A stretch of DNA of 64,000 nt from a virus (taxonomy: Duplodnaviria > Caudoviricetes). Made by a program: the position numbers and the translations under genes. The stretch spans positions 96,001-160,000 of IMG/VR virus record IMGVR_UViG_3300028886_000035. One strand, written 5' to 3'. Below are positions 42,434 to 63,989 of this stretch, piece by piece. The notes below the pieces were generated by a model that saw nothing but the letters and a program-made list of their open reading frames with translations, was not told where the DNA came from and made no database searches. Each line of letters opens with the position of its first letter. The first letter of the stretch is position 1.

Positions 42434-42829
42434 TTAGATACCGAAGAATTTCATATATTCATAGATAAAATCTTCTTTGTAATTATCTAAAATTTCTTCA
42501 AAGATTTTATGATGAATGAATTTATTATTTTTTTCTTTAATAAACTGATTTTTGATAGTTATAAACGGAGTACAATTTAATTCCCTTAATGTAAAACAAT
42601 GACCATTACTGTAATCTTTTTTTATAGAACACCATTGATTATAATGGACAGTATGTACATGTACACTATCGTCTGCAAAAAAAACATAGATGTAATAAGC
42701 AGATTTTTTCATTTCACATACATATCCAAAACAATATTGAATATCAAAATCATTGATATAAAATTTAAATGGAGTAAGTAAAGCACGGTTTTCTTTTTGA
42801 GATAAGAAAAAATTGGTTAATTTTCGCAT
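42434..42829 (-). CDS. G-phi tail family protein (ends MKFFGI)
   Basis: 131 aa with shared C-terminal motif. Confidence 0.7.
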   Translation of the reverse strand: MRKLTNFFLSQKENRALLTPFKFYINDFDIQYCFGYVCEMKKSAYYIYVFFADDSVHVHTVHYNQWCSIKKDYSNGHCFTLRELNCTPFITIKNQFIKEKNNKFIHHKIFEEILDNYKEDFIYEYMKFFGI

Positions 42830-44283
42830 GGGAACAACAACTCACTTTTCGTTCTACCTGAAAGTTTAATCATCGTAGTAAGTTTCTTCTGATACTCATT
42901 AATCAGAAGATTGAGTTTCTTCACAATGGTTGCATGGTTATCAGAAACATGGTCTACCCAATCATAATTAACTTTTGCTAAACCACAATTGGTTTTTACG
43001 AAATATGTATCATACTTATAGCTATCAGGTTTATATGTATCCTGTTTATCAATAACAACGTAACCGTGTTCAAATTCAAGGGTTTTAAACCCATTGACTT
43101 TAGCATAATCTTCCAAACGGAAAGTCGCTTCAGTAAGAGTATCGAATGCCAATTCCAATTCTGTATTATCAACGTTCTTTTTGTGTTTTGTTACGTTAAA
43201 TCCACAATTAATAAACTCTTTTGGAGTCTGCGGAAGATACGTAGAACCATAACGATAGTATCTCTTATTATATCTTCTGCTAAAAGCTATAGGAGTAGTC
43301 ATGCGAACCGTAACGGAACTGTTATCAATAATGGGGACAGATATACGGTTATATTCCTTGCCTAAAATACGTTTTGCAAGAGCTTTCTGATGACGGTTCA
43401 TTTTATCAAATCTCGTAAATAAAGTCATAAATGTATCATAGATGATTTTTGTTTCTTTGTTTACGTTTTTGATACGTTTCAGGACGTTGAATATATCAAA
43501 TGGAGTAGTAAGAGTAAAATATGCCTCGCCAATTTTAATTCTGCAAAAAACATTAGGAACATTAAGTGCATTTTTCCTTTTTACAGAAATAATGTATTTC
43601 TCTTCCTTACTTGCATTTTTGTCATAAGGATAAGAATTATATCTTCTATTACCAATATTAGGAGAAGCACTATCATGAATAACGTTAAATAAAGACATAA
43701 TAATACCATCGTTTTTATGATAATAGTAAAGAGATTTAAAAATATCATCTTTATTAATATCATTATGAGTATAGTCATATCCAAAATCTTTATCCTTATT
43801 TACGAGCTTGTAAAATTTGAAAGAATTTTTTGGTGTTTCAATATTATAGTAAGTTTTAAAACCTGATTTAACATATACCTTTTTACCAAAAAAGTTATTA
43901 AAACAGACTAATGTATAACTACTATTAGATTTAGCCATACAATCATCAAGAATGAGAACATCATATAATTCAATATTGCTATCAGGTTCGGTTTCATTAA
44001 AATGAATGTGGTCATAATCATAAGTAGAATAAGAGCCATTCCAACTACTTACGGAATAAGACATATTATAAGTAGTGAAATAACCAATTTTATTCTGTAC
44101 TTCACGTTCCAGAGTTTGAAGGTACTGTTCCGTATTTTTATTGTTAAGTTTATTTCCGTTATATTTAACAACAACAATACGATTATTATACATAGCTGTA
44201 GAATACATGATACGATTTTTTGTAAAACTATGATTAAGAATATCTTCATTCAAATCAATTAAATATTTTCTAAATGATTTCAT
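42817..44283 (-). CDS. Hypothetical early protein, paralog of 44419..45765
   Basis: Shared IL..SFT, Y...CFNNF.G.K, VRM.TPI.F and NGFK...F..G.VVI; own TTGACA promoter. Confidence 0.8.
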   Translation of the reverse strand: MKSFRKYLIDLNEDILNHSFTKNRIMYSTAMYNNRIVVVKYNGNKLNNKNTEQYLQTLEREVQNKIGYFTTYNMSYSVSSWNGSYSTYDYDHIHFNETEPDSNIELYDVLILDDCMAKSNSSYTLVCFNNFFGKKVYVKSGFKTYYNIETPKNSFKFYKLVNKDKDFGYDYTHNDINKDDIFKSLYYYHKNDGIIMSLFNVIHDSASPNIGNRRYNSYPYDKNASKEEKYIISVKRKNALNVPNVFCRIKIGEAYFTLTTPFDIFNVLKRIKNVNKETKIIYDTFMTLFTRFDKMNRHQKALAKRILGKEYNRISVPIIDNSSVTVRMTTPIAFSRRYNKRYYRYGSTYLPQTPKEFINCGFNVTKHKKNVDNTELELAFDTLTEATFRLEDYAKVNGFKTLEFEHGYVVIDKQDTYKPDSYKYDTYFVKTNCGLAKVNYDWVDHVSDNHATIVKKLNLLINEYQKKLTTMIKLSGRTKSELLFPCEN

Positions 44284-44327
44284 TGTTAATTAACCTCCCA
44301 CTTTGTATTTCTTTCTTTGTTAATATT

Positions 44328-44356
44328 ATAATAACATATTTTGTTTCATTTGTCAA
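44328..44356 (-). promoter_or_regulatory. Sigma-A early promoter
   Basis: TTGACA-17 bp-(TGn)TATTAT, after a terminator at 44383-44408. Confidence 0.8.
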
Positions 44357-44418
44357 TAGTTTTAATTAATTTTTTTAAATAAAATCCCTATCTACATAGA
44401 TAGGGATTAGGGAAGGTA

Positions 44419-45765
44419 TCAATTTTCTTTTTTAATAAGACTATTAATAAATGAATTTACGTCTGTTCCACGCATTTTAGCCATTGTCGTGATATATTTA
44501 TCGTATTCGTCACGCAAAGCGATTGTACGGCGATACAGAGAGTTTTTGGGGAGTTTCTTTTTATCTTTTGTCTCCCATTTAGCGGTAACTAAATCAATAT
44601 TGGTAAACCCTGTAATACTATTAACGAAATAATCGTTGTTTTCTTCTTTCGTTCCTTTGATTACAACTTTTCCGTTTTTAAAATCGACAACTTTAAATCC
44701 ATTGTCTTTATACTGTTCAATATCAGGATAATTATAAATAAGAGATTCTACCAAAATATTGATAGCTTTCATATCATTTTTATCAACGTCACCTGTAATT
44801 TCAAAACTATTGTCGTACGTCATTTTATCATCTTTACAGAAAGAATGAAAATAGTTCTTATCTTTGTTAAAATAGTACTGTGTACTATCATCAAAGAAAC
44901 CATAGTTGAAACCAATAGGCGTAATCATGCGTACACGCACATTACCATTATTGAAAACGTCATTATGGATAGAGTCAAAATTCTTATTCAAGAATTTCTT
45001 ACTGATTTCAATTTCTTCATTCGTCATTTTTTCAAAATCCTTAAACATCACTTCAAAATATTTCTGAAGCGTATTCATATTTTTATCATCTTTCATGGCT
45101 CTAAAAATGAAGAAAATCTGTTCAATGACATAGATAGGATAAGGAACATTATCAATGATAATTGTGCAATATAACTGCGGAATGATATATTTATTGTATT
45201 TGCACAATTTATTAAAAGCATCATCAAAATCATCTTCAGCACTATCCAAAATCATATCTTGTGGAATACGGAGTCCAAAGATAATAGCGTCATTTCCTTT
45301 ACGATAAACAACAGATTTGTGAATATCAGGAGCACCATTAATACAGGTATCGACAAATGAAACCTCGTTATTTTTTGCATTCAAATACATAGATTTGTAT
45401 AAATACATATTATCGGAATAATTCTTATTTTTAAATGTGGTAAGTAGACCAATTTTGTGTCCCATAAAATTATTGAAACAATAAATTGAATAGCTCATAC
45501 CATTAGAAGCATACATTTTATGCGAATTGATAGTCATAATATTGTACATTTCTACGTTGTCAATATTATTTTCTTCCATATTATTCACGAAGAAATCTCG
45601 TTCACTAGGCGTACAATTGTTTTTGTCGAATTGTCCAATTATAATATCATATTTGTTTTCTTCATCGCGAATATACTTATGAGTAATAGGATGTTCTGTG
45701 AAAGAATTTTCAAGAATTTCATCTTCAATTTGTGTAAACAACTTGTTCATTTTATTTACCTCCAA
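44419..45765 (-). CDS. Hypothetical early protein, paralog of 42817..44283
   Basis: See paralog; true start probably MNKLFTQ after GGAGG. Confidence 0.8.
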   Translation of the reverse strand: MEVNKMNKLFTQIEDEILENSFTEHPITHKYIRDEENKYDIIIGQFDKNNCTPSERDFFVNNMEENNIDNVEMYNIMTINSHKMYASNGMSYSIYCFNNFMGHKIGLLTTFKNKNYSDNMYLYKSMYLNAKNNEVSFVDTCINGAPDIHKSVVYRKGNDAIIFGLRIPQDMILDSAEDDFDDAFNKLCKYNKYIIPQLYCTIIIDNVPYPIYVIEQIFFIFRAMKDDKNMNTLQKYFEVMFKDFEKMTNEEIEISKKFLNKNFDSIHNDVFNNGNVRVRMITPIGFNYGFFDDSTQYYFNKDKNYFHSFCKDDKMTYDNSFEITGDVDKNDMKAINILVESLIYNYPDIEQYKDNGFKVVDFKNGKVVIKGTKEENNDYFVNSITGFTNIDLVTAKWETKDKKKLPKNSLYRRTIALRDEYDKYITTMAKMRGTDVNSFINSLIKKEN

Positions 45766-45873: not shown

Positions 45874-46359
45874 TTATAATCCATCTTGTATAATGAATAG
45901 TTTATAAATTTGTGCCATGTTTCTATGTTGTAAATAAAATTTAAACAAGTCTAATAATAACTGTACATCTTCATTATCATAATAATGTTCTTGTAAAAAT
46001 GTTAGCAATTCACCATATAATTTATCGTTAGAAATTGTATAATTGAAATTCTCCATAGTAGCTGGTTTTTTGAATTTCCAATTATCGGTAGAAAAGGTAA
46101 ATGAACGTTCAGAATTCAGTTTATGTATTGTAATCAAATGAATTTTAATACTGTATTTTGCTACATTATAGTTTATAGTTGGTTTTTCCCTATAAGTTGT
46201 AAATTTAGAATAAGTATAGTCTAAACTGTAATCTATTTGAATTTCTATTGATGAACTGATAACATGATGAATTAGTTTATATCCTGTAATTTGATAATCT
46301 TGAAACATGGAATTGTTTCTCACTTTGATTATATCAGAAGTTTCTATTTTATAATCCAT
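45874..46359 (-). CDS. G-phi tail family protein (ends IIQDGL)
   Basis: 161 aa, GGGAG SD. Confidence 0.75.
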   Translation of the reverse strand: MDYKIETSDIIKVRNNSMFQDYQITGYKLIHHVISSSIEIQIDYSLDYTYSKFTTYREKPTINYNVAKYSIKIHLITIHKLNSERSFTFSTDNWKFKKPATMENFNYTISNDKLYGELLTFLQEHYYDNEDVQLLLDLFKFYLQHRNMAQIYKLFIIQDGL

Positions 46360-46473: not shown

Positions 46474-46866
46474 TTATTTTTTTGACATTTTCATAAAATC
46501 TATAAAAGATTTTATATAGTTGTTGTAATAAGCAGGAAAATTATAAATAGATTGATACCAAATAAAATGATTTTCACATTTTTCTTTGTAATTGACTAAT
46601 ATATCAACAATAAAATGTTGATTTGTAGAATAAAAAAAGTTTATATGATATTTATATTGGTTTATATATAGCAAGTATTCATAAGAAATATTCAACATGT
46701 TTACATTTGATGCTGGTGCAACAACAATTTTTTTTGTAAAATGAATAGAAATAACAAAATTATATAATTTTATATATAGTTGATATAGTATCGTTATAAT
46801 TGAATTAATGGGAGAATATATAATCATTAAAAATTGTAATATATCTTTCATAGTATTATATTCCAT
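46474..46866 (-). CDS. Hypothetical protein
   Basis: 130 aa, hydrophobic N-terminus; lacks the G-phi end. Confidence 0.55.
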   Translation of the reverse strand: MEYNTMKDILQFLMIIYSPINSIITILYQLYIKLYNFVISIHFTKKIVVAPASNVNMLNISYEYLLYINQYKYHINFFYSTNQHFIVDILVNYKEKCENHFIWYQSIYNFPAYYNNYIKSFIDFMKMSKK

Positions 46867-47293
46867 GAAACATAATATATCGTTTATATAATAAATTCTT
46901 ATCCATATATTTTAAGAAATATGTGGGATAGGTTTGTTTTATCATGTTTTGATATATGTGTGGATTATCCTCTGTATGAATAGAATATAATAAAGTATCA
47001 AGTGATTTTCGCATTTGATGTTTATTTAAATATGGTGGTTTCATAAATGATATAGACATAGCAACATTTTTTTCATAACATGATATATGTAAACGTATAT
47101 GTATATCTAAATCTAATTTATTTACATATACAATATATTGAAAACGATATACATCGTATGTATTTTTTGATATACTTGTATCAGTGGTATATATATCATA
47201 TGTATCGCATAATAATATATATAATGATTTGGGTATTTGTGATTTGGGTATTTGTGATTTAAAATTTTTAACGGAAAGAAAATGCATAATCAC
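46856..47293 (-). CDS. G-phi tail family protein (ends IMFHGI)
   Basis: 145 aa. Confidence 0.7.
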   Translation of the reverse strand: MIMHFLSVKNFKSQIPKSQIPKSLYILLCDTYDIYTTDTSISKNTYDVYRFQYIVYVNKLDLDIHIRLHISCYEKNVAMSISFMKPPYLNKHQMRKSLDTLLYSIHTEDNPHIYQNMIKQTYPTYFLKYMDKNLLYKRYIMFHGI

Positions 47294-47892
47294 ATACCTA
47301 CTTTCTGAATTGATTTTATAATAAATTTGTTGTAGTCTTTCTTTACATATTTATTGAAAGAATATTTAATAAAACAGTAAATAAAAATATATTCACAAAT
47401 CATACTAATTAAATCCATGTTTGTTGATTTAATATATGATTTTATAGATTTTGATAAAGCATGATAATCCGTTTCAAAATTTATAGCATTGTTTTGGTCA
47501 AAACAATGTTTATTATATTTTATTTTGATATTTGGATAATAATATACTAAGTCATCTTTAATATTAAAGTTTTTTAAATAAAAAAATACACTAGTAGATT
47601 TATTGAATAACAAAATGTTATAAAATTTTGTTGAAAGTAGATTGAAATCTTTATATTTATTCATATTCTTCTTATTAAAATCAAAATATTTATCTAGTCT
47701 TTTTATAGCTAATTCACAAATACCATATTTATCTTTCATATAAGTTAATTGTTCTGTTTCTTCATATATTTTAGAATATAGTATAATGTACAATAAATTA
47801 ATTGGTAATGTAATAATATGAAATAATGGTATAATAATATTATACCATTTATTGATAATCCAATTAAATAGGTTCTTTAAATGCCAAAACAT
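47290..47892 (-). CDS. G-phi tail family protein (ends IQKVGM)
   Basis: 200 aa, hydrophobic N-terminal segment. Confidence 0.65.
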   Translation of the reverse strand: MFWHLKNLFNWIINKWYNIIIPLFHIITLPINLLYIILYSKIYEETEQLTYMKDKYGICELAIKRLDKYFDFNKKNMNKYKDFNLLSTKFYNILLFNKSTSVFFYLKNFNIKDDLVYYYPNIKIKYNKHCFDQNNAINFETDYHALSKSIKSYIKSTNMDLISMICEYIFIYCFIKYSFNKYVKKDYNKFIIKSIQKVGM

Positions 47893-48278
47893 TTTGTCAC
47901 ATCATCCATTGTAAAATGAGGAAAATTTTTTAAAGCGTTTGGCTGAACTTCGTAATAAGAAGATAAATCGTGACGAATAAAATCAGTTAAAATATTCTTC
48001 ATTTTGATATGCAGTTTATTTTTATTTTTTTCAGTCAAAAAATATTTATATGTTTTTGTCCAAAATTCATTCATGCAATATGTACAATAAAAATATTGTT
48101 TATCAAAATTATAATTAATTGTATATATTACATTAGTTGTATTATTAGAGATATGGTTATGACCAAAAAGTTCAATAGTTTCTTTATTTGCATAAAAAAT
48201 TTGTTGTTCCCATGTACTTGTTTCGTTCATTAAAGACGTAGTAATAAAACCTTTTTTGTAAACGTTTTTTATAACCAT
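47877..48278 (-). CDS. G-phi tail family protein (ends TKCFGI), close paralog of 48291..48701
   Basis: W..QQI, YTIN, K..NIL and NFPH.T shared. Confidence 0.8.
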   Translation of the reverse strand: MVIKNVYKKGFITTSLMNETSTWEQQIFYANKETIELFGHNHISNNTTNVIYTINYNFDKQYFYCTYCMNEFWTKTYKYFLTEKNKNKLHIKMKNILTDFIRHDLSSYYEVQPNALKNFPHFTMDDVTKCFGI

Positions 48279-48290: not shown

Positions 48291-48701
48291 TTATAAGCCA
48301 AAAGTTTTTACAATAATTTCTTTGGTAATGTGTGGAAAGTTCATAATATAATTTTTTGTATATCGAACTTTTTCATGATGATAATTTTTTAGTTTATCTA
48401 CTAAAATATTTTCTAATTTTTTATAAAGAACTTTTTCTTTATTATAATCACAAATATATCTATGTTCATCAAAACCACAATCATCTATTGCATATACCAT
48501 ATACAGAGTATTGTCATTATAATCAAAATTGATTGTATACTCTAAAATATGGTCACTTTCAGAATAAAAATAGCAATTGTACATAGAAAAATAGCAACTG
48601 TACATAGGAATGGATTGTTTAGAATGATAGATTTGTTGATTTTTCCATCTATCTATTTCTCTTTGTGATACAAATGTATTATGGTAATTGATAATAGGCA
48701 T
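48291..48701 (-). CDS. G-phi tail family protein (ends VKTFGL)
   Basis: 136 aa, AAAGGAG SD, promoter upstream. Confidence 0.8.
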   Translation of the reverse strand: MPIINYHNTFVSQREIDRWKNQQIYHSKQSIPMYSCYFSMYNCYFYSESDHILEYTINFDYNDNTLYMVYAIDDCGFDEHRYICDYNKEKVLYKKLENILVDKLKNYHHEKVRYTKNYIMNFPHITKEIIVKTFGL

Positions 48702-48737: not shown

Positions 48738-48767
48738 ATTATATCACTTATACAGTATATTTGTCAA
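48738..48767 (-). promoter_or_regulatory. Sigma-A early promoter
   Basis: TTGACA-18 bp-(TGn)TATAAT, after a terminator at 48786-48813. Confidence 0.75.
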
Positions 48768-48817: not shown

Positions 48818-49180
48818 TTATAATATCTGTGGCGAAAACCCCACGGGCTTGCCCGTGGGTATTAGTGAGTTCGTAGAAGTTACATTAATTCGTTTACCAT
48901 GAACAATTTCCTTTAAATTACGTGATACACCTGTATAATTTTCAAGTGGTTTTTGTTCATTTACTTGAAAATCGCTTGATACAGTTTGGTGAGAAAATGT
49001 TTTTGGAAGTGATAAACGATTTAACTCTGCACATATTCCATCAATGTAATCAATTTTTTCTTGCAGACGTGTTTGCAATAACTCTTTTTCTCTCTTTAAT
49101 AACATATATTGAGTTTCTAAATTTTTATATTTAGCTTTTAATTCAATATATTTATCGTTTATATCATATATATTACTCAT
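48818..49180 (-). CDS. Coiled-coil hypothetical protein
   Basis: 120 aa, AAGGAG SD; 3' end runs through a GC-rich hairpin. Confidence 0.7.
   Translation of the reverse strand: MSNIYDINDKYIELKAKYKNLETQYMLLKREKELLQTRLQEKIDYIDGICAELNRLSLPKTFSHQTVSSDFQVNEQKPLENYTGVSRNLKEIVHGKRINVTSTNSLIPTGKPVGFSPQIL
48840..48859. repeat. IS200/IS605-like subterminal hairpin remnant
   Basis: cccacgggc-tt-gcccgtggg, GC-rich in an AT-rich context. Confidence 0.5.
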
Positions 49181-49191
49181 TTCAAAACTCC

Positions 49192-51799: not shown

Positions 51800-51813
51800 T
51801 TTTATACCACCTT

Positions 51814-53382: not shown

Positions 53383-53515
53383 GATAATTAAATAATACTT
53401 TAGTTACCCTGACAATTGTATTACAAATCAAAAATAAAAGAAAGAAGGTTAATATTGGACTATTATTCATAAAATCAAATATCGTCATTATTTTCCCTCT
53501 CTTTCTTTGAGCCAA
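53321..53515 (-). CDS. Small single-TM membrane protein
   Basis: PILTFFLLFLICNTIV hydrophobic segment. Confidence 0.55.
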   Translation of the reverse strand: MAQRKRGKIMTIFDFMNNSPILTFFLLFLICNTIVRVTKVLFNYHDTEEDKENKNETHDDGQNK

Positions 53516-55367: not shown

Positions 55368-55768
55368 ATTCCATTTCTCATAATTATATAAGTTAAAACG
55401 ATTTGATGAAATGTTTTGTTTATATTACAAATATTCATATATTATTGAAATAATGTTTGTTGTGTAATTTCATTCAATGGATTATTTGGTAAATAATTAA
55501 ATTTAAGTATGTCTAATTTAAATTGATTATTTTTAAATATTAGTGAACAAATAACGTCTTTAAATTCAGTTTTGTATTGACCTTGTTCATCTATTTTATA
55601 GACATTTAAACTTATTGTTCCAAAACTATTTTTATTAAATTTGCTAGAAAAAAATTTTTTAACAAATTTATATAAATATATTGAAAATACAAATTTACAC
55701 GATTTTGTTTTTGAAACAATAATAATATTGTCATTAGCAATATTTATATATGTATCAATGTATTTCAT
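55367..55768 (-). pseudogene. G-phi family member with a premature TAA
   Basis: After ...QTLFQ* the same frame continues YMNICNINKTFHQIVLTYIIMRNGI. Confidence 0.6.
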
Positions 55769-56298
55769 AAACCACGTACCTTTATAATCTTATCTTTATA
55801 TTTATCAAAAATTTCATTTCTACTATTATACATACGTTTACAAATATTTTGTAATAAATCGTTTGGGATGGCAGATAAATATTTTGTTAATCTGTTAATT
55901 TGATTTTCTGTTAAATAACACATGTATTGATTTCTGTTATATGCAGATTTAGGAGATTCAATTTTAAAAGTATCATTATCAATAAAAATTGATAATTTAA
56001 AATCTACATATGATATACCAGTAATAGTTAGACAAAGCATAAGTGGAGTATCTTTGGTTAATTTATATGGCAAAATATTATCAGAATCAAATTGATAAAA
56101 TGGCAAAATATCATCAGAATCAAATGGATAAAAATGTAAATTGATACTTACAGAATTGTAATTGTTAAAAATAGTCCAATGTTCTGTTTTAAATGGAGCA
56201 CAATAATATCTGTTTAAATCTTCACCTGTTTGTTTTTCTATTATAAAATTGTCAATAGACCTAAGATTTTTCAAAATCCACACCTTCTTATTGCCCAT
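55765..56298 (-). CDS. G-phi tail family protein (ends IKVRGL)
   Basis: 177 aa, internal duplication FDSDDILP/FDSDNILP. Confidence 0.7.
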   Translation of the reverse strand: MGNKKVWILKNLRSIDNFIIEKQTGEDLNRYYCAPFKTEHWTIFNNYNSVSINLHFYPFDSDDILPFYQFDSDNILPYKLTKDTPLMLCLTITGISYVDFKLSIFIDNDTFKIESPKSAYNRNQYMCYLTENQINRLTKYLSAIPNDLLQNICKRMYNSRNEIFDKYKDKIIKVRGL

Positions 56299-56705
56299 TC
56301 CGATACTTTTTTAAAGTTAAAAATTTTAGAGTTATTTAATAATTGTCTGATTGGTTTAATTTCATCTTGTGTTATATCACTTAACTTATCAATATCATAT
56401 CCTTCTTTAATACCATCTTCAAACATATCATAATAGGATAATTTTATAATTAATTTTTTCGTATCTTTGGTTTCATATTGCGCATCACTTTTTTTATCAA
56501 TAATAACATATACATTAAAATATCTATATTCAGAAGGGTATGGTATTAAATTATCGTTGATAATATTTAGATTATCTTCTACAAATTTTAAATAAATATT
56601 ATAATTTTGATAAGGTACATAAATATCATATGATTTTGGATTTCTTGTACCATGATAAAGAAGCCATTTATTATAGTATTTTTCCCATTTTTTATAATAA
56701 TCCAT
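56271..56705 (-). CDS. G-phi tail family protein (ends IRRCGF)
   Basis: 144 aa, AAGGAG SD. Confidence 0.75.
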   Translation of the reverse strand: MDYYKKWEKYYNKWLLYHGTRNPKSYDIYVPYQNYNIYLKFVEDNLNIINDNLIPYPSEYRYFNVYVIIDKKSDAQYETKDTKKLIIKLSYYDMFEDGIKEGYDIDKLSDITQDEIKPIRQLLNNSKIFNFKKVSEWAIRRCGF

Positions 56706-56755: not shown

Positions 56756-56785
56756 AAAACAGGTGTTTTGTCAACACCTGTTTTT
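56756..56785 (-). terminator. Intrinsic terminator
   Basis: aaaaacaggtgtt...aacacctgttttt hairpin. Confidence 0.75.
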
Positions 56786-57281
56786 AAATTCCATGATTAA
56801 TATTGATAAGTTCAAGCAATTTATATTTGCAGAAATTATTGATAAAAAAATCTTTTATATTTATATCTGTTTCTGTTTTATCAAAACTTTCATATAATGA
56901 ACTCGGTCGTGGATTTGGTAAGTCCCCAACGTATGTATCATAATAATCTAATTGTATTTCTCCATCATCTGTTCGGTGAATGGCATAATTAAAAATATCA
57001 ATTTGTTTTACAATTGATAAATTATCATTAATATACTCGATTTTAATTTTTGTTTTAACTGTTTCCAAATGTTTAAAGTATCTTTCTAACCCTAGAAATG
57101 GAGTACTATAAAAAATTGTAATCTTAATATTAGAATTATTTGTTTTGTTTTGGAAATGAAATATTGAAGTTAGTTTGTTATAATTAGAAATGTGATGTGT
57201 ATCTATACAAAATGAACAACTGTGAGATAAGTAGTATTTATTATTAAAATTGTTTAATGTCATCATTTCCTCATATCCCAT
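56784..57281 (-). CDS. G-phi tail family protein (ends NINHGI)
   Basis: 165 aa. Confidence 0.7.
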   Translation of the reverse strand: MGYEEMMTLNNFNNKYYLSHSCSFCIDTHHISNYNKLTSIFHFQNKTNNSNIKITIFYSTPFLGLERYFKHLETVKTKIKIEYINDNLSIVKQIDIFNYAIHRTDDGEIQLDYYDTYVGDLPNPRPSSLYESFDKTETDINIKDFFINNFCKYKLLELININHGI

Positions 57282-57293: not shown

Positions 57294-57677
57294 TCACATC
57301 CCATTTGTATAAACATACATATCCTTAATTAAATTTGTTGGGATTGAATTAATCATTTTTTCTATACGTATAGCATCTTTATCCATAATACTTTTTCTAT
57401 CTTTAGGGAATATGTTAAAAGTAGGGATTTCTTGAAAAACAAAATTAAAGCACAGTTGATGTAAACATTTGATTTTCCTTCTGCATGATTGTTTATAGGT
57501 CGCGTTTAATCGAATATTCCCATTTTCATTAAATGATACACAAATGTTTAAATTGTTATTTTGATTAATTGTATATTGATTCCCGCCATAATATCCATTC
57601 TCATTTGACATTAAATGATAATAGTCATACTTAACTAGAGTAGAAATTTTTTCAAGAAACATCGTTATACACCCCAT
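57294..57677 (-). CDS. G-phi tail family protein (ends VYTNGM)
   Basis: 127 aa; tail IP......MY shared with the next two genes. Confidence 0.75.
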   Translation of the reverse strand: MGCITMFLEKISTLVKYDYYHLMSNENGYYGGNQYTINQNNNLNICVSFNENGNIRLNATYKQSCRRKIKCLHQLCFNFVFQEIPTFNIFPKDRKSIMDKDAIRIEKMINSIPTNLIKDMYVYTNGM

Positions 57678-58039
57678 ATCATGATATACATTGCTTTTCT
57701 ATCATCTTGTGGTATATTATCAATTAATTTGTTTGCTCTAATATACCATCTTTTAATATAGTCTTTATCGCCATCGAAATTAAATTGATATGGTTCAATA
57801 AAAATTATATCTATATTATGATTATCATTTTGATGGAAATATACAAGTTTATCCTTCACACCTTTAACACAACAACGATTGCTTTTCGTTTTCCATGCGT
57901 CAATGTGGACATATCTTTCATTAAGAATTCGAATTAGATATGTATTTTGGTGAATATTATCTTTAAATAAAAAATCTTTGCCAAATGAAGAATGACTGTA
58001 TTGTGTTGATTTTAGATTGTTTATATGATGTAATTCCAT
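57665..58039 (-). CDS. G-phi tail family protein (ends IMIWGV)
   Basis: 124 aa; NR.C..G and W..R motifs shared with 58055. Confidence 0.75.
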   Translation of the reverse strand: MELHHINNLKSTQYSHSSFGKDFLFKDNIHQNTYLIRILNERYVHIDAWKTKSNRCCVKGVKDKLVYFHQNDNHNIDIIFIEPYQFNFDGDKDYIKRWYIRANKLIDNIPQDDRKAMYIMIWGV

Positions 58040-58054: not shown

Positions 58055-58426
58055 TCATAATCCATAATTAATTATATATGCTTTTTGCACAATATTCTGT
58101 GGTAATATATCAACTATTTTACGTACACGTTTAAACCAATGCTGTTTAAATTCACTATAACTATAGTATCCTGAATTTTCTCCATGACATATATTGTTAT
58201 CTTTTAAATAAAGTTTTAATTCCCCATCATGAAAAATTGGTTTAAATTCGGTACAAGCTAAACCTCTAATGCAAACTCGATTTGTGTTACTCATATGAGC
58301 ATTAAAACGAACATTGAATTTATTGTTTAAGTATATTTCATAGTCATGACGATGTTCTTCATCAATAATTTTGATATTACAAGCTCCAAATCTATGATAT
58401 GCTTCAATTGAACGAATATAAATCAT
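58055..58426 (-). CDS. G-phi tail family protein (ends IINYGL)
   Basis: 123 aa, AAAGGAG SD. Confidence 0.8.
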   Translation of the reverse strand: MIYIRSIEAYHRFGACNIKIIDEEHRHDYEIYLNNKFNVRFNAHMSNTNRVCIRGLACTEFKPIFHDGELKLYLKDNNICHGENSGYYSYSEFKQHWFKRVRKIVDILPQNIVQKAYIINYGL

Positions 58427-58521: not shown

Positions 58522-58875
58522 TTATAATCCAAAAGATATAATATAAAATTGTTTTAAACAACGTTTTTTAACAAATCTTATGATTTTTTTTGATGTTTTA
58601 AAATCCATAGGCACATCATATTTAAATGCAGCTTGTTTTGTAATATCCATAATTTTAATTCCTTTTGAAGTTAAACGTACTTTATAATGACTACTATAAT
58701 AAAAATTATATCTAATTATTAATATAAAATCTCTTTTATTATTATGACTATAATAATAGTCTATATTTAAAATACCATCTTTATATGTTAATTGAAATTG
58801 ACTATATGTTTCATTGAATATTTCTATATATTTCGTTTTAATATGTTGAAAACGAAAATATGAATTTATATTCAT
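58522..58875 (-). CDS. G-phi tail family protein (ends IISFGL)
   Basis: 117 aa. Confidence 0.7.
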   Translation of the reverse strand: MNINSYFRFQHIKTKYIEIFNETYSQFQLTYKDGILNIDYYYSHNNKRDFILIIRYNFYYSSHYKVRLTSKGIKIMDITKQAAFKYDVPMDFKTSKKIIRFVKKRCLKQFYIISFGL

Positions 58876-59225
58876 ATACCTCTACCTATCGTTACCATTT
58901 TAAAAATTTCTTCTTTATAATTTCTATATATTTTTTTTGCTTTTATAACATAATCCTTGTCAAAAATTTTTTCTATAAACCATATTGTTCTATACTTATC
59001 GTTTTTACCAACAATATTAGCATTAATTTTAATGCCATCTTTATTTGTTATATCAAAATGGAAGCTATCTGCAACATTATGATGAAAATTTTCATAGCAA
59101 TAAGAACTACTTGTATTGACTCTAATATGTATGCGATAAGTTTCACCATGATATGTAATTTCAGTTGTATATAACGATAAATGGTCATTGTATATTATAG
59201 TACCATATTTTGTTATTTTGCTCAA
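58872..59225 (-). CDS. G-phi tail family protein (ends TIGRGI)
   Basis: 117 aa. Confidence 0.7.
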   Translation of the reverse strand: MSKITKYGTIIYNDHLSLYTTEITYHGETYRIHIRVNTSSSYCYENFHHNVADSFHFDITNKDGIKINANIVGKNDKYRTIWFIEKIFDKDYVIKAKKIYRNYKEEIFKMVTIGRGI

Positions 59226-59228: not shown

Positions 59229-59711
59229 TTATAATCCTTCTGTATAAGTAATAATGTTTTGAATAAATCGTTGACCATCATTTATTAAAAAATCATCAAA
59301 AAAAATACAAATGTTTTTATATTGATTGATGTTTTGCTTGTGATTTCTCATATTTATATAGTATTTTTGTTTTTTATAATTGGTTATACTAAAATTTCCT
59401 TTTCGATATGGTATTTCTATTTTTTGTGATATAAATTTTAATCCATTTTTAATTTTTATATCATACGCTCTATGAGTATAGTGAATATCTTTGTCTATTA
59501 TAGATAAAACAAGAGTTTTATGGTTATTATGTTTCATTTCACCATAACTGTTCATGATATAATCATTGGCAATTGTAATATCTATATTAGCCTTTTTGTC
59601 TTGATGAATAATATCAAACCGATAATGATATGTATCATGATATTTTTGTGAACACTTATTTCTATATACAATTTTAACATTTTGTTCTTCAAATGTCCAT
59701 TGTTTTTGCAT
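59229..59711 (-). CDS. G-phi tail family protein (ends TYTEGL)
   Basis: 160 aa. Confidence 0.7.
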   Translation of the reverse strand: MQKQWTFEEQNVKIVYRNKCSQKYHDTYHYRFDIIHQDKKANIDITIANDYIMNSYGEMKHNNHKTLVLSIIDKDIHYTHRAYDIKIKNGLKFISQKIEIPYRKGNFSITNYKKQKYYINMRNHKQNINQYKNICIFFDDFLINDGQRFIQNIITYTEGL

Positions 59712-59822: not shown

Positions 59823-59957
59823 TCATAAACCAAATTTTTTACAAAATTCTTGTTTAAAGAATGTTTCTAAATGAGTTAATTTTTTATTCATTTTCTTATC
59901 TAGGTTAATCATTTCTTCTTCATTTGGCATATTAGTAATTTGTTTAATACGTTTATA
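59823..59957 (-). pseudogene. 3' fragment of a G-phi family gene truncated at the IS remnant
   Basis: Reads YKRIKQITNMPNEEEMINLDKKMNKKLTHLETFFKQEFCKKFGL*. Confidence 0.6.
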
Positions 59958-59961
59958 TTAT

Positions 59962-60216
59962 TGTCAATGCGTCTATCAGTCTAACGATGACCGTATTGGA
60001 GCTATAAATATTCAACACCTCGGAACTATGTGGATTTCCGGAGATAACCATCCTCGCTACGAAAGAATAACAACTGCTTCGGAGTAAACTCCTTAGCAAA
60101 GCGGGTGTTGTTAGCCACCCGACGATGTAGGCGGATTTAGGGAGACATCTTGGATGTCGTTAGTACCTATGCAATTCCGACTTACAAGCTCCCGACTTTA
60201 GTCGGGAGTAGTTGAC
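59962..60216 (+). mobile_element. tnpB: IS200/IS605-family remnant: tnpB 3' end plus right end (omega/reRNA region)
   Basis: CQCVYQSNDDRIGAINIQHLG...ASE* (zinc finger/RuvC-III tail, 59962-60087); terminal hairpin ctcccgac-ttta-gtcgggag followed by tagttgac; GC-rich island. Confidence 0.85.
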
Positions 60217-60218: not shown

Positions 60219-60563
60219 TTAAATGCCTTTTGTATATGATAAAAATAATTTTGCATAATTGATAATTTCATTTTTATATTTAGCATAATATTTTATTATA
60301 CTCTGTCGTTCTTTTTCAGGAATATCGTTAAAATCATCATAATTGTAAATTTTTCCTTGGTTGTTTATATCTAAAGTCATGTAATATTCACAATCTTTTA
60401 CAAATACATCAACAACACAACAAGTTTCATATGAACAATCTTCTGTGACCTCATATTCTTCATATTGCAATATTAATTGTATATTATCATTGATATAAAT
60501 TGAAGCATATTTATCTATAAATGGATTTGTTAGATAATATTTTGTCTGTGTTATCATTTCCAT
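60219..60563 (-). CDS. G-phi tail family protein (ends SYTKGI)
   Basis: 114 aa with its own promoter. Confidence 0.75.
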   Translation of the reverse strand: MEMITQTKYYLTNPFIDKYASIYINDNIQLILQYEEYEVTEDCSYETCCVVDVFVKDCEYYMTLDINNQGKIYNYDDFNDIPEKERQSIIKYYAKYKNEIINYAKLFLSYTKGI

Positions 60564-60661: not shown

Positions 60662-60900
60662 TTATAATCAGTATAAAATCACATATATATCTGCAATTTT
60701 TCTGTATGGTAAAGAATATTGTCCAACAAAATTATATATGGATTAAATAATTGATAATATAGTGTCTTGTATAACACACAATCACTTCATTTGTTGATTT
60801 GCTCGATTTAAATTCTATAACTTCTTTTTCCCATTTTCAAACGAAATATGTAAATTATTATTTAAAATTTTGCAAAACAAATAATTAATCATAATATCAT
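60662..60900 (-). pseudogene. Decayed G-phi family gene
   Basis: Ends ADIYVILY-TGA-L-TAA, consistent with GGA->TGA at the conserved Gly. Confidence 0.5.
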
Positions 60901-60902
60901 CA

Positions 60903-61280
60903 TTATATACCATTAACTAATATAAAGAATTGTTTTGTATTAACTAAAAATTCATCGTGATATTTAGATACAATTTGTCTAGTTATTTTTTGTGTTCGTT
61001 CACCAATAACTTTTGTAAATTTTTCTCTATTAAATTCCATATGATATATATCATTAATAATGTAAGTTTGTTTTTCTGTACGACCCAATATAATATTTAT
61101 TTCTAATCCACTATGTATTTTAAACATATATTTTAAACGCTCATTGTATGCAAATGTTAAACGAACATTATCCTTAATATAATATTCGTAAAAATCATCA
61201 AATATATACGGATTTATATCTTTATGTGGAATAGTATATTTGCATTGTTTTAATGTAAAATCTTTCATAATCCACCACAA
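60903..61280 (-). CDS. G-phi tail family protein (ends ILVNGI)
   Basis: 125 aa. Confidence 0.7.
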   Translation of the reverse strand: MWWIMKDFTLKQCKYTIPHKDINPYIFDDFYEYYIKDNVRLTFAYNERLKYMFKIHSGLEINIILGRTEKQTYIINDIYHMEFNREKFTKVIGERTQKITRQIVSKYHDEFLVNTKQFFILVNGI

Positions 61281-61591
61281 CGAATATAAAAATTTTTCAT
61301 TAAATCAGTTAAAATTTGTTTATGCGGAATAAATTTATCATCTAATTCATCTATATTTCTTTTATTTTTTATGTCAAAAACATCTAAAAAATTTTTAACT
61401 GTAATAACAGTAAGATAATTTTTTTGATGATTACAAAATCCAATTTTAAAATCACTATCCATATTATAATAGAACAGTACTTCTAAATTCCAATTATAAT
61501 AAATTTCTCTAATTTCATAAAAACTTTTATTTATTATTACTCGTTCTTTTAATACCCAAGGCATGATGTTACATTCCTTCCCATATAACAC
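61265..61591 (-). CDS. G-phi tail family protein (ends IRCGGL)
   Basis: 108 aa. Confidence 0.7.
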   Translation of the reverse strand: MLYGKECNIMPWVLKERVIINKSFYEIREIYYNWNLEVLFYYNMDSDFKIGFCNHQKNYLTVITVKNFLDVFDIKNKRNIDELDDKFIPHKQILTDLMKNFYIRCGGL

Positions 61592-61766
61592 GACATCGTT
61601 TTGTTAATTCTATTAATTCAGATTGATATTTATCTATAATTGGCATTAAATACTTTAGTTGTTTAGAATGTATATATGATAATTTGTTATTACAAACTGT
61701 AAAATCAATTTCCCCATAGCCTAAAATGTTTCTTTTTTCCTTTATATATGATTGTTTACAATCCAC
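61569..61766 (-). CDS. G-phi tail family protein, short (ends VIWEGM)
   Basis: 65 aa. Confidence 0.6.
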   Translation of the reverse strand: MDCKQSYIKEKRNILGYGEIDFTVCNNKLSYIHSKQLKYLMPIIDKYQSELIELTKRCRVIWEGM

Positions 61767-62094
61767 TTTGATAAGTAACTAACATTCTATAATAATCCAT
61801 GATTTTGTTATAATTCTTTTCTACATAATTTTTAATTTCATCATAATAAATGTGTTTTTTATCATTGCTGTCTATATAAAATATGTTATCATCTAAACTA
61901 TGTTTTAATACATATGTATATCTGTATTTATTTATTTTCAATGTGATGTGTTTTTTGTAGGTAAATTTTTCATAAACAATTTCAATTTGATAGTCATTGT
62001 AACTATCAAAAATATTCATTTTATTAATAGAACAAAAATTACCTTTTTTGTTTATTATAATTTTATTACTTTGAAATCGCCCCATAATTATCAC
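61756..62094 (-). CDS. G-phi tail family protein (ends TYQSGL)
   Basis: 112 aa. Confidence 0.7.
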   Translation of the reverse strand: MIIMGRFQSNKIIINKKGNFCSINKMNIFDSYNDYQIEIVYEKFTYKKHITLKINKYRYTYVLKHSLDDNIFYIDSNDKKHIYYDEIKNYVEKNYNKIMDYYRMLVTYQSGL

Positions 62095-62474: not shown

Positions 62475-62930
62475 CTATATCCCAAATTCAATTATTATAT
62501 CTTTTTGTATATCTTTCTTAATTCTGTTATATTTTGATAAATAATTTGCTAATTCTATAGTTGCTCTTTTTAAATAAAATTGATATTCATCATCTGTGTA
62601 CCATCCAATATATTCCATATCATTAAATAATGTTTTTATGTCACATTCTCCATACATGAAATTTAATGGTATGAAGCTTATTTGTAATTCACTTATATCT
62701 GATTGTTTTTCTTTGAAATATATTTTTTTATTATAAATTTCAAAATCATATTGATTTTTTTTGCCTTTAAAGTATAGATTAATAGTTATTTGCAAATTCC
62801 AAAATTCACTTTGTATTTTATACCATACAGTTTTCATTTTTATACTCCATATATCTTTACTAACTGCGTATAAACCATTTGTTGTTTTCATAAATTTGGT
62901 GATATATTTTTTTCTTCTACGAAATCTCAA
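62475..62930 (-). CDS. G-phi tail family protein (ends IIEFGI)
   Basis: 151 aa. Confidence 0.7.
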   Translation of the reverse strand: MRFRRRKKYITKFMKTTNGLYAVSKDIWSIKMKTVWYKIQSEFWNLQITINLYFKGKKNQYDFEIYNKKIYFKEKQSDISELQISFIPLNFMYGECDIKTLFNDMEYIGWYTDDEYQFYLKRATIELANYLSKYNRIKKDIQKDIIIEFGI

Positions 62931-63001
62931 TTCATAACGTCTCGTTCATACATGGTTTCTAGTTCATTACATTCATCCATATATAATTCTTTAACCATAA
63001 T

Positions 63002-63445
63002 TTACATTCCATTCATTAATATTTGACTTTCTTTTACTCTTTTGAATAAAATCCTGTTATATTTAAAAAATGGGTCATAATAATCGGCATAAATATCTTT
63101 ACTTTCCATTTGTATATAGAATTTTTTATTATTACGATATAATTCTTGAATTAATTTCTGCGTAGCAATAATATATGCAGGTGTAATATCATCATATTTT
63201 AATACTATATGAATGAATTTATCATATTTGTTTTTAATGAATGTCATCATTTTAAAATTTTTATTTTCTTTTGTATCGTTATTGACAATATAATTGATTT
63301 TATATTTTTTTACTGTATCTCCTATTTTAGTTGACTGTAATTTTATATCTAACATTTCTCTCTCTCCTATTACATTAATTATATCATTTTTTGTCAACAA
63401 TTTCAAGTATTTTTTGATTACTTTTTGTATATATGAAAAGGACAC
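63002..63445 (-). CDS. G-phi tail family protein (ends ILMNGM); true start probably MLDIKL near 63355
   Basis: AGGAGAG SD before the internal ATG; terminator at 63436-63467. Confidence 0.7.
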   Translation of the reverse strand: MSFSYIQKVIKKYLKLLTKNDIINVIGEREMLDIKLQSTKIGDTVKKYKINYIVNNDTKENKNFKMMTFIKNKYDKFIHIVLKYDDITPAYIIATQKLIQELYRNNKKFYIQMESKDIYADYYDPFFKYNRILFKRVKESQILMNGM

Positions 63446-63466
63446 CTAATCATGGAGGTGTCCTTT

Positions 63467-63820
63467 TCATATTCCATTACTATATACCCAAAATTCTTTT
63501 ATCTCTCTTTTTAAATCTTTTTTCATATCAGAAAAATCTTTTAATATCTTATTCATTCGTTCTTCTTTTTTATACCATATCGTTTGATATGTTTTTAAAT
63601 ATTTAATGCAATTTATATCCTCTATAACATATCCCAAACTATCTTCTCCATATCGAAATCCAAATTCTATTCCACAATTTTCTTTTCTGATACTAACAAC
63701 CTTGTTTTGTGAAAATCGTAACCATAAAAATATACCGTTTTTATTCCATATTTTATAACTTTTATAATTAGGAACATATTTATTTAAATAATTGGTACAA
63801 GTAAGTTCATATCCCATCAA
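63467..63820 (-). CDS. G-phi tail family protein (ends VYSNGI)
   Basis: 117 aa. Confidence 0.7.
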   Translation of the reverse strand: MMGYELTCTNYLNKYVPNYKSYKIWNKNGIFLWLRFSQNKVVSIRKENCGIEFGFRYGEDSLGYVIEDINCIKYLKTYQTIWYKKEERMNKILKDFSDMKKDLKREIKEFWVYSNGI

Positions 63821-63989
63821 AGACTATCATCCCTTTTTTTATTGATTCAATATATTCTTTATATCCATGTAATCCTATTTGTTTTTCATACCTTAATAAG
63901 TTGTCATGATAGAATTGTTTGATTATTCCATTTATGTGATATATTTTGCTTATTAAAATGATATTTGCTATATGAAAATAATCCCATTC
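63807..63989 (-). pseudogene. 3' part of another G-phi family gene at the window edge
   Basis: Reads EWDYFHIANII...YKEYIESIKKGMIVFDGI*, with an in-frame TAA at 63990-63992. Confidence 0.5.

What the first reader, a model, noticed from the sequence alone, without database searches (positions are those of the whole stretch)
42434..63989. Array of about 30 divergent small early proteins sharing a C-terminal helix-Gly-[ILMVF]-stop tag: candidate adaptor/effector library
Seen: 27 intact minus-strand ORFs of 65-200 aa end in G followed by one hydrophobic residue and the stop (FFGI, QDGL, FHGI, KVGM, CFGI, TFGL, FYGI, CWGM, NGGL, GVGL, VRGL, RCGF, NHGI, TNGM, IWGV, NYGL, SFGL, GRGI, TEGL, TKGI, VNGI, CGGL, WEGM, QSGL, EFGI, MNGM, SNGI). 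From 54051 onward this holds for 21 of 22 ORFs, and none of the credible genes in 1-42 kb ends this way. Positions -6, -5 and -4 are mostly hydrophobic or aromatic (e.g. MYVYTNGM, AYIINYGL, FYIISFGL), while the rest of each protein is highly divergent. All four Gly codons are used, and several members end at terminators with no coupled gene, so the constraint looks protein-level. Inference: a variable N-terminal recognition domain plus a constant tail that docks on one shared partner. Candidate mechanisms: (a) mimicry of the phi-G-[F/L] tripeptide (ClpX IGF, ClpA IGL) that docks on ClpP, or another protease-adaptor tail; (b) removal of the last residue to expose Gly for ubiquitin-like conjugation; (c) a degron or a PDZ-type ligand. 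I know of no described phage system like this.
Basis: partly seen in the sequence, partly recalled or inferred. Interest (0 to 1): 0.92.

Follow-up and report, generated by a model that had tools for sequence, protein, structure and literature searches.

The report
Phage paralog array with Gly-capped ends
An uncultured 281-kb cattle-gut phage devotes about a tenth of its genes to one fast-evolving family of small proteins that all stop with glycine plus one greasy residue. This ending is most simply the textbook cap of their last helix rather than a separate docking tag, and what the family does is unknown.

Summary
All 27 window ORFs end G-[ILMVF]-stop. Genome-wide it is 40 of 375 ORFs, and 33 of those lie among the 46 ORFs at window 42,434-68,949 (binomial P about 6e-52), so the array runs about 5 kb past the window end.

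The constraint acts on the protein. All four Gly codons and nine last codons are used, and distances to the next gene vary. Gly is invariant in 44 ortholog groups from related contigs, while the last residue swaps among L/I/M/V/F. A more distant relative (orthologs at 23-77% identity) keeps the ending in 15 of 22 ORFs.

The conserved part is longer than a dipeptide. Positions -14 to -3 alone separate members from other ORF ends (AUC 0.93) and show helical periodicity. Two AlphaFold models (pLDDT 76 and 72) each give a beta-sheet followed by one or two C-terminal helices that stop just before G-phi. Gly at C', a hydrophobic residue at C'' and a hydrophobic residue at C3 (77%) make up a minimal Schellman helix cap.

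The family has no Pfam, PHROG or fold match. An exhaustive profile search of 1.84 billion proteins found only 10 representatives. Copies are gained, truncated and lost (median dN/dS 0.29).

The ClpP-mimic and ubiquitin-like readings fail their defining features. A shared docking role for the terminal helix is not excluded (about 0.22).

The parts
42434..42829 (-). member, 131 aa, ends FFGI
   Evidence: orthologs keep the tail
45874..46359 (-). member, 161 aa, ends QDGL; terminator-like hairpin just downstream
46856..47293 (-). member, 145 aa, ends FHGI
47290..47892 (-). member, 200 aa, ends KVGM
47877..48278 (-). member, 133 aa, ends CFGI; full-length paralog of the next gene
   Evidence: E 1e-9
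48291..48701 (-). member, 136 aa, ends TFGL; three Logan alleles stop 8 residues early
48818..53943 (-). non-member block that splits the array: 120-aa protein, NAD-dependent DNA ligase (49192-51051), and unknowns of 132, 120, 522 and 151 aa
54051..54266 (-). member, 71 aa, ends FYGI; terminator-like hairpin downstream
54270..54617 (-). member, 115 aa, ends CWGM (orthologs end GI or GL)
54621..55001 (-). member, 126 aa, ends NGGL
55002..55367 (-). member, 121 aa, ends GVGL
55367..55768 (-). decayed member: premature TAA after 108 codons; the old tail ...YIIMRNGI is still readable in frame downstream; intact (134 aa) in L001 and three other loci
55765..56298 (-). member, 177 aa, ends VRGL
56271..56705 (-). 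member, 144 aa, ends RCGF (ortholog ends GL)
56784..57281 (-). member, 165 aa, ends NHGI
57294..57677 (-). member, 127 aa, ends TNGM
57665..58039 (-). member, 124 aa, ends IWGV (orthologs end GM or GI)
58055..58426 (-). member, 123 aa, ends NYGL; modelled: 8 strands, helices 90-106 and 110-121, then G122 L123
58451..58479 (-). perfect TTGACA-17-TGnTATAAT promoter-like site ahead of 58055-58426
   Evidence: contigs from four RNA libraries end at 58427-58438 (weak hint)
58522..58875 (-). member, 117 aa, ends SFGL; terminator-like hairpin at 58523-58497
58872..59225 (-). member, 117 aa, ends GRGI
59229..59711 (-). member, 160 aa, ends TEGL; best-conserved member (73-77% identity in the distant relative L017)
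59829..59963 (-). remnant: last 45 codons of a member that is intact in L001 (7676-8143, 155 aa); still ends KKFGL
60219..60563 (-). member, 114 aa, ends TKGI; modelled: strands 6-74, helix 83-112, then G113 I114
60674..60913 (-). remnant of a member that is intact in L001 (6266-6595)
   Evidence: tblastn, 45% identity
60903..61280 (-). member, 125 aa, ends VNGI; its L001 ortholog is split by a TnpB gene
61265..61591 (-). member, 108 aa, ends CGGL
61569..61766 (-). member, 65 aa, ends WEGM (L001 ortholog is 108 aa)
61756..62094 (-). member, 112 aa, ends QSGL
62475..62930 (-). member, 151 aa, ends EFGI
63002..63445 (-). member, 147 aa, ends MNGM
63467..63820 (-). member, 117 aa, ends SNGI
63807..63989 (-). 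60-codon open frame ending FDGI with no long ORF from a start codon; short or decayed member, status open
48738..48767 (-). perfect TTGACA-18-TGnTATAAT promoter-like site ahead of 48291-48701, preceded by hairpin 48814-48785
   Evidence: RNA-library contigs end at 48713 and 48728 (weak hint)

Best explanation
The array is one lineage-restricted, fast-evolving family of small, mostly basic, soluble alpha+beta proteins. The family is expanded by tandem duplication. This cattle-gut jumbo phage has 33 intact copies and at least 3 decayed ones, and its lineage has more than 50 ortholog groups.

Each member is an N-terminal antiparallel beta-sheet followed by one long or two shorter C-terminal helices. 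The G-phi end is not a separate tag. It is the last two residues of the family's best-conserved element, a terminal helix with the pattern [D/E/N]-x-phi-[K/Q/R]-x-phi-[Y/I]-[I/V]-[Y/I]-x-x-G-phi-COOH. In that helix Gly sits at C' and the last residue at C''.

This is the shortest possible complete Schellman cap. Gly takes the left-handed conformation that stops the helix. The backbone NH of the final residue bonds back to the C3 carbonyl, and its side chain covers the hydrophobic C3 residue (position -6, I/V). Dropping the last residue would remove the cap, and anything after it is dispensable. The stop codon therefore stays put while the rest of the protein diverges.

Shown: the statistics, protein-level conservation, purifying selection, helical periodicity, helix-then-G-phi in two models, restricted distribution, and gene gain and loss.

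Inferred: the cap geometry, the burial of the helix against the sheet, and the biological role. The role is most likely that of early, host-RNA-polymerase-transcribed host-interaction (takeover or anti-defence) proteins whose variable sheet surfaces carry the specificity.
For: Statistics, codon usage and spacing argue for a protein-level constraint.

Gly is invariant in 44 of 44 ortholog groups. The last residue is L 18, I 14, M 6, V 5, F 1. Position -6 is hydrophobic in 77% (I 21, V 8), -7 in 89%, -11 in 80%, and -13 is polar in 77%.

A leave-one-out PSSM on positions -14 to -3 alone (G-phi excluded) separates members from other ORF ends with AUC 0.93. The hydrophobicity of the last 30 residues has its periodicity peak at 100 degrees, not at 160-180 degrees.

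Model 1 (58055-58426, pLDDT 76, pTM 0.67) has 8 strands and helices 90-106 and 110-121, followed by G122 L123. Model 2 (60219-60563) was built from an alignment that left out model 1's subfamily. It has pLDDT 72, strands 6-74 and helix 83-112, followed by G113 I114. Both models draw overlapping weak fold neighbours.

Full-length homology inside subfamilies is shown by BLASTP (1e-9 and 2e-5), by hhalign (95%, 89% and 86%) and by alignment A1, which has further conserved columns.

Orthologs are under purifying selection: median dN/dS is 0.29 for 17 members against 0.12 for 8 neighbouring genes.

The definition of the Schellman loop comes from the literature. C' Gly is the most important C-terminal helix motif, with a C'' NH to C3 CO bond (PMC4515027). 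[quoted passage not shown]

Sigma-70-like promoters and terminators flank the transcription units. Contigs from four cattle-gut RNA libraries end next to these promoters, which is a weak hint only.
Against: Absolute invariance of a capping Gly across more than 50 groups that have otherwise diverged beyond BLAST and HHalign detection is stronger than a stability contribution alone would predict. So is the strict placement of the Gly one residue from the end.

The last helix is hydrophobic on nearly all sides (-8, -7, -6 and -5 consecutively). That would also suit an interface.

No coordinates were available, so the burial of the tail, the phi angle of Gly and the C''-C3 contact were not measured. 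The models have only moderate confidence, and pLDDT falls to about 62-63 in the last block.

Most groups could not be linked by sequence (only 4 of 946 hhalign pairs reach 50% or more), so common ancestry of all members is inferred from architecture, position and the shared terminal pattern.

The function is not shown by anything here.
Confidence: 0.55

Rival explanations
1. Docking tag. The conserved terminal helix, with its free G-phi carboxyl end, binds one shared hub (a host or phage protein, or the paralogs themselves). The array would then be a library of diversified adaptors or effectors delivered to a single machine.
For: Gly and the exact chain end are invariant while everything else diverges. 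The helix is hydrophobic almost all round. The many diversified copies sit behind sigma-70-like promoters, as in host-takeover regions.
Against: In both models the terminal helix is continuous with the fold rather than set off by a linker. The pattern is fully accounted for by a standard helix cap. No partner candidate was identified. Truncated alleles lacking the tail persist in natural populations, although these may be pseudogenes.
Confidence: 0.22
2. The tail mimics the ClpX/ClpA IGF/IGL tripeptide and docks on host ClpP.
For: The end has Gly followed by a hydrophobic residue; L or F is last in 19 of 44 groups.
Against: The residue before Gly is aliphatic in only 4 of 44 groups, and only 2 match [ILVM]-G-[FL] (read). 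I, M or V is last in 25 of 44. The motif is a helix end, not a flexible loop. The phage encodes no ClpP.
Confidence: 0.03
3. The last residue is clipped to expose Gly for ubiquitin-like conjugation or another C-terminal modification.
For: The penultimate Gly is invariant. The phage encodes an M16 peptidase elsewhere (window 6519-7739).
Against: The models are a beta-meander plus helix, not a beta-grasp with a flexible tail. There is a single Gly directly after helical hydrophobic residues. The phage has no ThiF/E1. Conservation of a hydrophobic last residue is unexplained if that residue is discarded.
Confidence: 0.03
4. The C-terminal hydrophobic end is a degron or a PDZ/tail-specific-protease ligand that sets the lifetime of these proteins.
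For: A hydrophobic residue carrying the free carboxylate is invariant.
Against: Such ligands bind as extended strands of 4-5 residues, whereas here the chain is predicted helical up to position -3. The positions equivalent to P-2 are not conserved.
Confidence: 0.05
5. The terminal amphipathic helix is a membrane-targeting sequence of the MinD/FtsA type.
For: There is a short helix at the extreme C-terminus with a conserved basic residue at -10 and many hydrophobic positions. The proteins are mostly basic.
Against: No linker precedes the helix. In model 2 it is the end of a single 30-residue helix, with pLDDT 76-87 over residues 81-110. Hydrophobic residues surround the helix rather than forming one face.
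Confidence: 0.05
6. A DNA- or RNA-level signal (ribosome-binding site of the next gene, or termination context) produces the pattern.
For: Many genes are tightly packed or overlap.
Against: All four Gly codons, nine last codons and three stops are used. The only fixed bases are those the amino acids require. Distances to the next start run from overlaps to about 500 nt, and some members end at terminators. Upstream residues -14 to -3 are conserved as amino-acid classes.
Confidence: 0.01

Closest known systems
Schellman loop (helix C-capping motif with Gly at C')
   Same: A helix is followed by Gly and then a hydrophobic residue. There is a hydrophobic residue four positions before the Gly (C3). 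The last three residues are non-helical in both models.
   Different: Here the motif lies at the very end of the chain and is invariant across a whole multigene family. The hydrogen bonds and the phi angle of Gly could not be measured.
Tandem arrays of diversified paralogs in jumbo phages (for example the RCC1-like arrays of Rak2-like phages, which an earlier scan note says share a 12-residue N-terminal peptide)
   Same: There are tens of adjacent, strongly diverged paralogs in a very large phage genome, and a short terminal signature is the best-conserved part.
   Different: This is an unrelated family with a C-terminal signature that is continuous with the fold. The proteins are small (65-220 aa). 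No link to the virion is known.
Host-takeover / early gene modules of large phages (SPO1 gp37-60, T5 pre-early genes; from general knowledge)
   Same: There are many small orphan genes behind strong host-type promoters, interspersed with terminators.
   Different: Those modules hold mostly unrelated proteins, whereas here most belong to one family. Early timing is inferred, not measured.
p32/C1QBP/MAM33 fold (beta-meander sheet plus C-terminal helices)
   Same: Both models hit it weakly over their whole length: Z 6.1/6.0 for model 1, Z 5.0-5.1 for model 2, and Foldseek E 0.08.
   Different: The scores are at background level. p32 proteins are very acidic, whereas these have a median pI of 8.75. 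There is no sequence similarity.
ClpX IGF / ClpA IGL ClpP-docking loops
   Same: Gly is followed by a hydrophobic residue.
   Different: The aliphatic first residue is missing in 40 of 44 groups. The motif is a helix end, not a loop. There is no AAA+ domain.

Membership tests
Schellman helix C-cap | An alpha-helix runs up to the residue before the Gly | tested here: met
   DSSP on two AlphaFold models gives H110-121 then G122, and H83-112 then G113. The hydrophobic periodicity peak is at 100 degrees.
Schellman helix C-cap | Gly at C' | tested here: met
   Met in 44 of 44 ortholog groups, in 15 further ORFs in L017, and in all 10 database representatives.
Schellman helix C-cap | Hydrophobic residues at C'' and C3 that can contact each other | tested here: met
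   C'' (-1) is hydrophobic in 100% and C3 (-6) in 77%, mainly I/V. The definition is from PMC9951308.
Schellman helix C-cap | 6-to-1 and 5-to-2 backbone hydrogen bonds, with Gly in the left-handed conformation | not testable with these tools
   No model coordinates are returned. The definition is from PMC4515027.
ClpP-docking IGF/IGL tripeptide | [I/L/V]-G-[F/L] tripeptide | tested here: not met
   The residue before Gly is aliphatic in 4 of 44 groups, and the full pattern occurs in 2 of 44 (read).
ClpP-docking IGF/IGL tripeptide | Lies on a flexible surface loop of an AAA+ unfoldase | tested here: not met
   No Pfam domain was found, and the motif is a helix terminus in both models.
Ubiquitin-like modifiers | Beta-grasp fold with a flexible C-terminal tail ending in Gly(-Gly) | tested here: not met
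   The models are 6-8 meander strands plus one or two terminal helices, and the Gly directly follows the helix.
Ubiquitin-like modifiers | Cognate E1-like activating enzyme | tested here: not met
   There is no ThiF (PF00899) match in the 98%-complete phage genome. A host enzyme cannot be excluded.
MAM33/p32 family | Significant fold or sequence match | tested here: inconclusive
   VIA Z is 6.1/6.0 for model 1 and 5.0/4.5 for model 2, and Foldseek E is 0.08. All are within background.
MAM33/p32 family | Strongly acidic protein | tested here: not met
   Median pI is 8.75, and 7 of 44 groups have pI below 6.
Any Pfam / PHROG family | Profile match above threshold | tested here: not met
   Ten members were scanned and nothing passed the curated cut-offs in Pfam. 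No PHROG match was better than E 0.01.

The most novel reading that the evidence does not exclude
The conserved terminal helix with its free G-phi end is a docking peptide. About 35 diversified beta-sheet binders per genome are plugged onto one common host or phage hub through it. That would be a phage-encoded adaptor or effector library with a C-terminal address, a system with no described counterpart.
Probability: 0.2. Interest if true: 0.85.

Novelty: new member of a known kind. Interest (0 to 1): 0.45.

Why it matters
This is an undescribed protein family with no Pfam, PHROG or fold match. An exhaustive profile search of 1.84 billion sequences gave only 10 representatives.

The family makes up roughly a tenth of the genes of a widespread cattle-gut jumbo phage. 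It turns over quickly between close relatives.

Such expanded, fast-changing early-type gene families are the usual place to find host-takeover and anti-defence functions. The array is therefore a ready list of candidates for screening once the host is known.

The tail also shows how a strict terminal signature can arise from plain helix-capping physics, so it need not be a signal. If the tail nevertheless proved to be a docking address, it would define a new way for phages to organise effector libraries.

Tried and rejected
- Megablast of 12 kb and 10 kb of the window against INPHARED phages gave no match. tblastn of the best-conserved member gave no match either.
- The ligase finds only distant phages, at no more than 34% identity.
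The scan with the ligase found nothing.
- The single metagenome scan returned only the JGI contig already in hand.
- Pfam and PHROGs scans of ten members gave nothing usable.
- Fold searches of model 1 (PDB by Foldseek, BFVD, ESM Atlas, VIA wide) and of model 2 (VIA wide) gave nothing above background.
- The ESM Atlas feature search gave no usable hit.
- All-against-all hhalign of 44 groups linked only a few. A first run timed out.
- An iterative HMM search inside the genome stalled at 3 members.
- A homodimer prediction for 58055-58426 gave no verdict either way.
- The TnpB protein of L001 has no tblastn match in the window.
- Rfam at gathering scores found nothing in 42-64 kb.
- HxxEH or other peptidase motifs in the large neighbours at 42817-45765 were not found. 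The phage's M16 peptidase lies elsewhere.
- The RNA-library contigs cannot rank expression. No silent stretch or DNA run was laid, so transcription is only hinted at.

Full report
**Setting**

The window is bases 96,001-160,000 of a single 281,186-bp virus record. IMG/VR classes it as linear, CheckV puts it at 98% complete, and its G+C is 28%. Near-identical sequence occurs in cattle-gut metagenomes from 13 studies, including six metatranscriptome libraries. INPHARED holds no related cultured phage. The array genes all lie on the minus strand.

**Checking the observation**

- In a greedy non-overlapping ORF set for the whole genome, 40 of 375 ORFs end G-[ILMVF].
- Of those, 33 are among the 46 ORFs in genome 138,434-164,949 (window 42,434-68,949). 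Amino-acid composition predicts 0.6 there (P about 6e-52).
- The rest of the genome has 7 of 329, against about 4 expected.
- The array therefore runs about 5 kb past the window end.
- Two more ORFs with family-like ends lie together on the plus strand at genome 245,635-246,263.

**DNA level or protein level**

- Tail Gly codons are GGA 17, GGT 9, GGG 4 and GGC 3. My chi-square on the counts against genome-wide Gly usage is about 6.3 with 3 d.f., which is not significant.
- The last residue uses nine different codons, and all three stops occur.
- Distances to the next start run from overlaps of a few bases to about 500 nt.
- Some members end at terminator-like hairpins.
- The only fixed bases are those required to encode Gly and a hydrophobic residue.
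- A ribosome-binding-site or termination-context artefact is thus excluded.

**Relatives**

Word-indexed searches and one exhaustive profile search (1.84 billion representatives) found only the same phage lineage. The profile search gave ten representatives at E below 0.001, and every complete one ends G-phi. Their contigs were fetched.

- A syntenic 29.8-kb JGI contig (L001) carries 32 ORFs ending G-phi. Nine of these have no intact counterpart in the window.
- Clustering all loci gives 44 ortholog groups with the tail. Gly is invariant in all of them. Within and between groups the last residue changes only among L, I, M, V and F.
- A more distant ENA contig (L017), whose orthologs share 23-77% identity, has the end in 15 of 22 ORFs. 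One gene there carries four extra residues after G-I, and one ends NIWI.

**Real genes, rapid turnover**

- Between the window genome and L001, members have median dN/dS of 0.29 (n=17). Neighbouring non-members have 0.12 (n=8). This is purifying selection, somewhat relaxed.
- Window 55442-55768 has a premature TAA. Its old tail...YIIMRNGI, is still readable in frame downstream, and four relatives have the intact 134-aa gene.
- 59829-59963 is the last 45 codons of a member that is intact in L001. 60674-60913 is another remnant.
- The L001 ortholog of 60903-61280 is split by a TnpB gene.
- Three Logan alleles of 48291-48701 stop eight residues early.
- The exceptions in the array are thus decayed members, as two other first-stage notes on this stretch proposed.

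**What is conserved**

Aligned from the C-terminus, the 44 groups share more than a dipeptide:

| Position | Pattern |
|---|---|
| -13 | polar in 77% (D/E/N) |
| -11 | hydrophobic in 80% |
| -10 | K/Q/R in 61% (read from the counts) |
| -8 | hydrophobic in 66% |
| -7 | hydrophobic in 89% (Y/I) |
| -6 | hydrophobic in 77% (I/V) |
| -5 | hydrophobic in 68% (Y/I) |
| -2 | G in 100% |
| -1 | hydrophobic in 100% |

A leave-one-out weight matrix built on positions -14 to -3 only separates members from all other ORF ends in the genome with AUC 0.93. The hydrophobicity profile of the last 30 residues has its periodicity peak at 100 degrees, which is helical, and none at 160-180 degrees, which would be strand.

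Inside subfamilies the homology is full-length. BLASTP gives 1e-9 and 2e-5, hhalign gives 95%, 89% and 86%, and further columns are conserved in alignment A1. Most groups, however, cannot be linked by sequence.

**Structure**

- Model 1 is 58055-58426, built from a 19-row alignment (pLDDT 76, pTM 0.67). It has eight meander strands and helices 90-106 and 110-121, followed by G122 L123.
- Model 2 is 60219-60563, built from a 63-row alignment that deliberately left out model 1's subfamily (pLDDT 72, pTM 0.58). It has strands 6-74 and a single helix 83-112, followed by G113 I114.
- Both models therefore have a sheet followed by one or two terminal helices that stop one residue before the Gly.
- No fold search gave a match above background. 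Both models draw the same weak neighbours: p32/MAM33-like chains at Z 4.3-6.1.
- The proteins are basic (median pI 8.75) and have no membrane segment, unlike acidic p32.

**Mechanism**

A helix, then Gly, then one hydrophobic residue, with a hydrophobic residue four positions before the Gly, is the Schellman loop.

- The literature describes C' Gly as the most important C-terminal helix motif, because its left-handed conformation allows the C'' NH to C3 CO and C' NH to C2 CO bonds (PMC4515027).
- Common Schellman loops are biased towards a hydrophobic patch between the C'' and C3 side chains. Ccap, C' and C'' are non-helical, and most such hydrophobic clusters are buried (PMC9951308).
- The motif needs exactly two residues after the helix.
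- A chain that stops at C'' has the shortest complete cap. That explains both "Gly plus exactly one residue" and why that residue must be hydrophobic.

I therefore read the tail as the structural end of the family's most conserved helix, inherited from a common ancestor. This rests on sequence statistics and two moderate-confidence models. The hydrogen bonds, the Gly conformation and the burial of the helix could not be measured because no coordinates are returned.

**What remains odd**

Total invariance of a capping residue in a family that has otherwise diverged beyond detection is more than a stability contribution alone would predict. So is a last helix that is hydrophobic nearly all round. 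A role of this helix as an interface with one partner, or between paralogs, is not excluded, and I give it about 0.2-0.25.

The specific proposals fare worse:

- The ClpP-docking tripeptide is matched in 2 of 44 groups, and the motif is not on a loop.
- A ubiquitin-like end lacks the fold, the flexible tail and an E1 in the phage.
- PDZ or degron ligands bind as extended strands, whereas here the chain is helical up to position -3.

**Expression**

Perfect or near-perfect TTGACA-17/18-TGnTATAAT sites sit in the intergenic gaps just after terminator-like hairpins, at 58479, 48767, 60614, 53996 and 63406.

Contigs from four cattle-gut RNA libraries are identical to the window. Several end within about 10-25 nt of these -10 boxes. 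The ends at 58427-58438 occur in all four runs, and those at 48713 and 48728 occur in two. This is only a weak hint of transcription units, because DNA carry-over was not controlled.

Early timing and a host-interaction role are inferences from this layout and from the gain-and-loss dynamics.

**Verdict**

The array is a new, lineage-restricted multigene family. Its striking end has an ordinary structural explanation. The docking-library reading is possible but unsupported, and two of its proposed mechanisms fail their defining features.

Noticed in passing
window 59965-60218: A stretch of about 250 nt, richer in G+C and apparently structured and non-coding, lies directly after the stop of 60219-60563. 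Contigs from one RNA library reach depths of 100-690 here. It has no Rfam match and no similarity to the TnpB gene or its 3' end in L001.
   Followed up: partly
L001 4709-6025: A 438-aa TnpB (Cas12f1-like_TNB) gene is inserted inside the ortholog of window 60903-61280. It splits that gene into 4402-4638 and 6091-6276.
   Followed up: partly
window 48670-49336: Contig depth in two RNA libraries (about 800 and 650) is far above the neighbouring bins. The bin holds the 120-aa coiled-coil-like gene 48818-49180 and the 13-bp-stem hairpin at 48785-48814. Whether this reflects a highly expressed gene or RNA, or foreign contigs, is unknown.
   Followed up: no
window 42817-44283 and 44419-45765: Two large adjacent proteins (488 and 448 aa) look like paralogs of each other by eye, sharing blocks such as VRMTTPIAFS/VRMITPIGFN. 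They have no Pfam match and are conserved in all relatives.
   Followed up: no
window 6519-7739: The phage encodes a 406-aa M16-family peptidase (PF00675, E 2e-30) next to a 1569-aa gene.
   Followed up: no
G000:C1:245635-246263 (outside the window, + strand): Two adjacent ORFs (104 and 99 aa) end ...AIYNGL and ...IYNFGL, matching the family's terminal pattern away from the main array. ORFs at 191,721 and 195,677 end FFGL and YSGL.
   Followed up: no
L017 4400-4705 and 5484-5828: In the distant relative, one gene ends ...KNFGI followed by four extra residues (ANKL), which may be a stop-loss extension. Another ends ...LIYNIWI, with W where Gly is expected. These natural variants could be used to test the importance of the tail.
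   Followed up: no
window 53488-53943: A 151-aa protein with a hydrophobic N-terminal half (probably membrane segments) and a coiled-coil-like C-terminal half sits at the border of the second array block, behind its own promoter-like site at 53996-53968.
   Followed up: no
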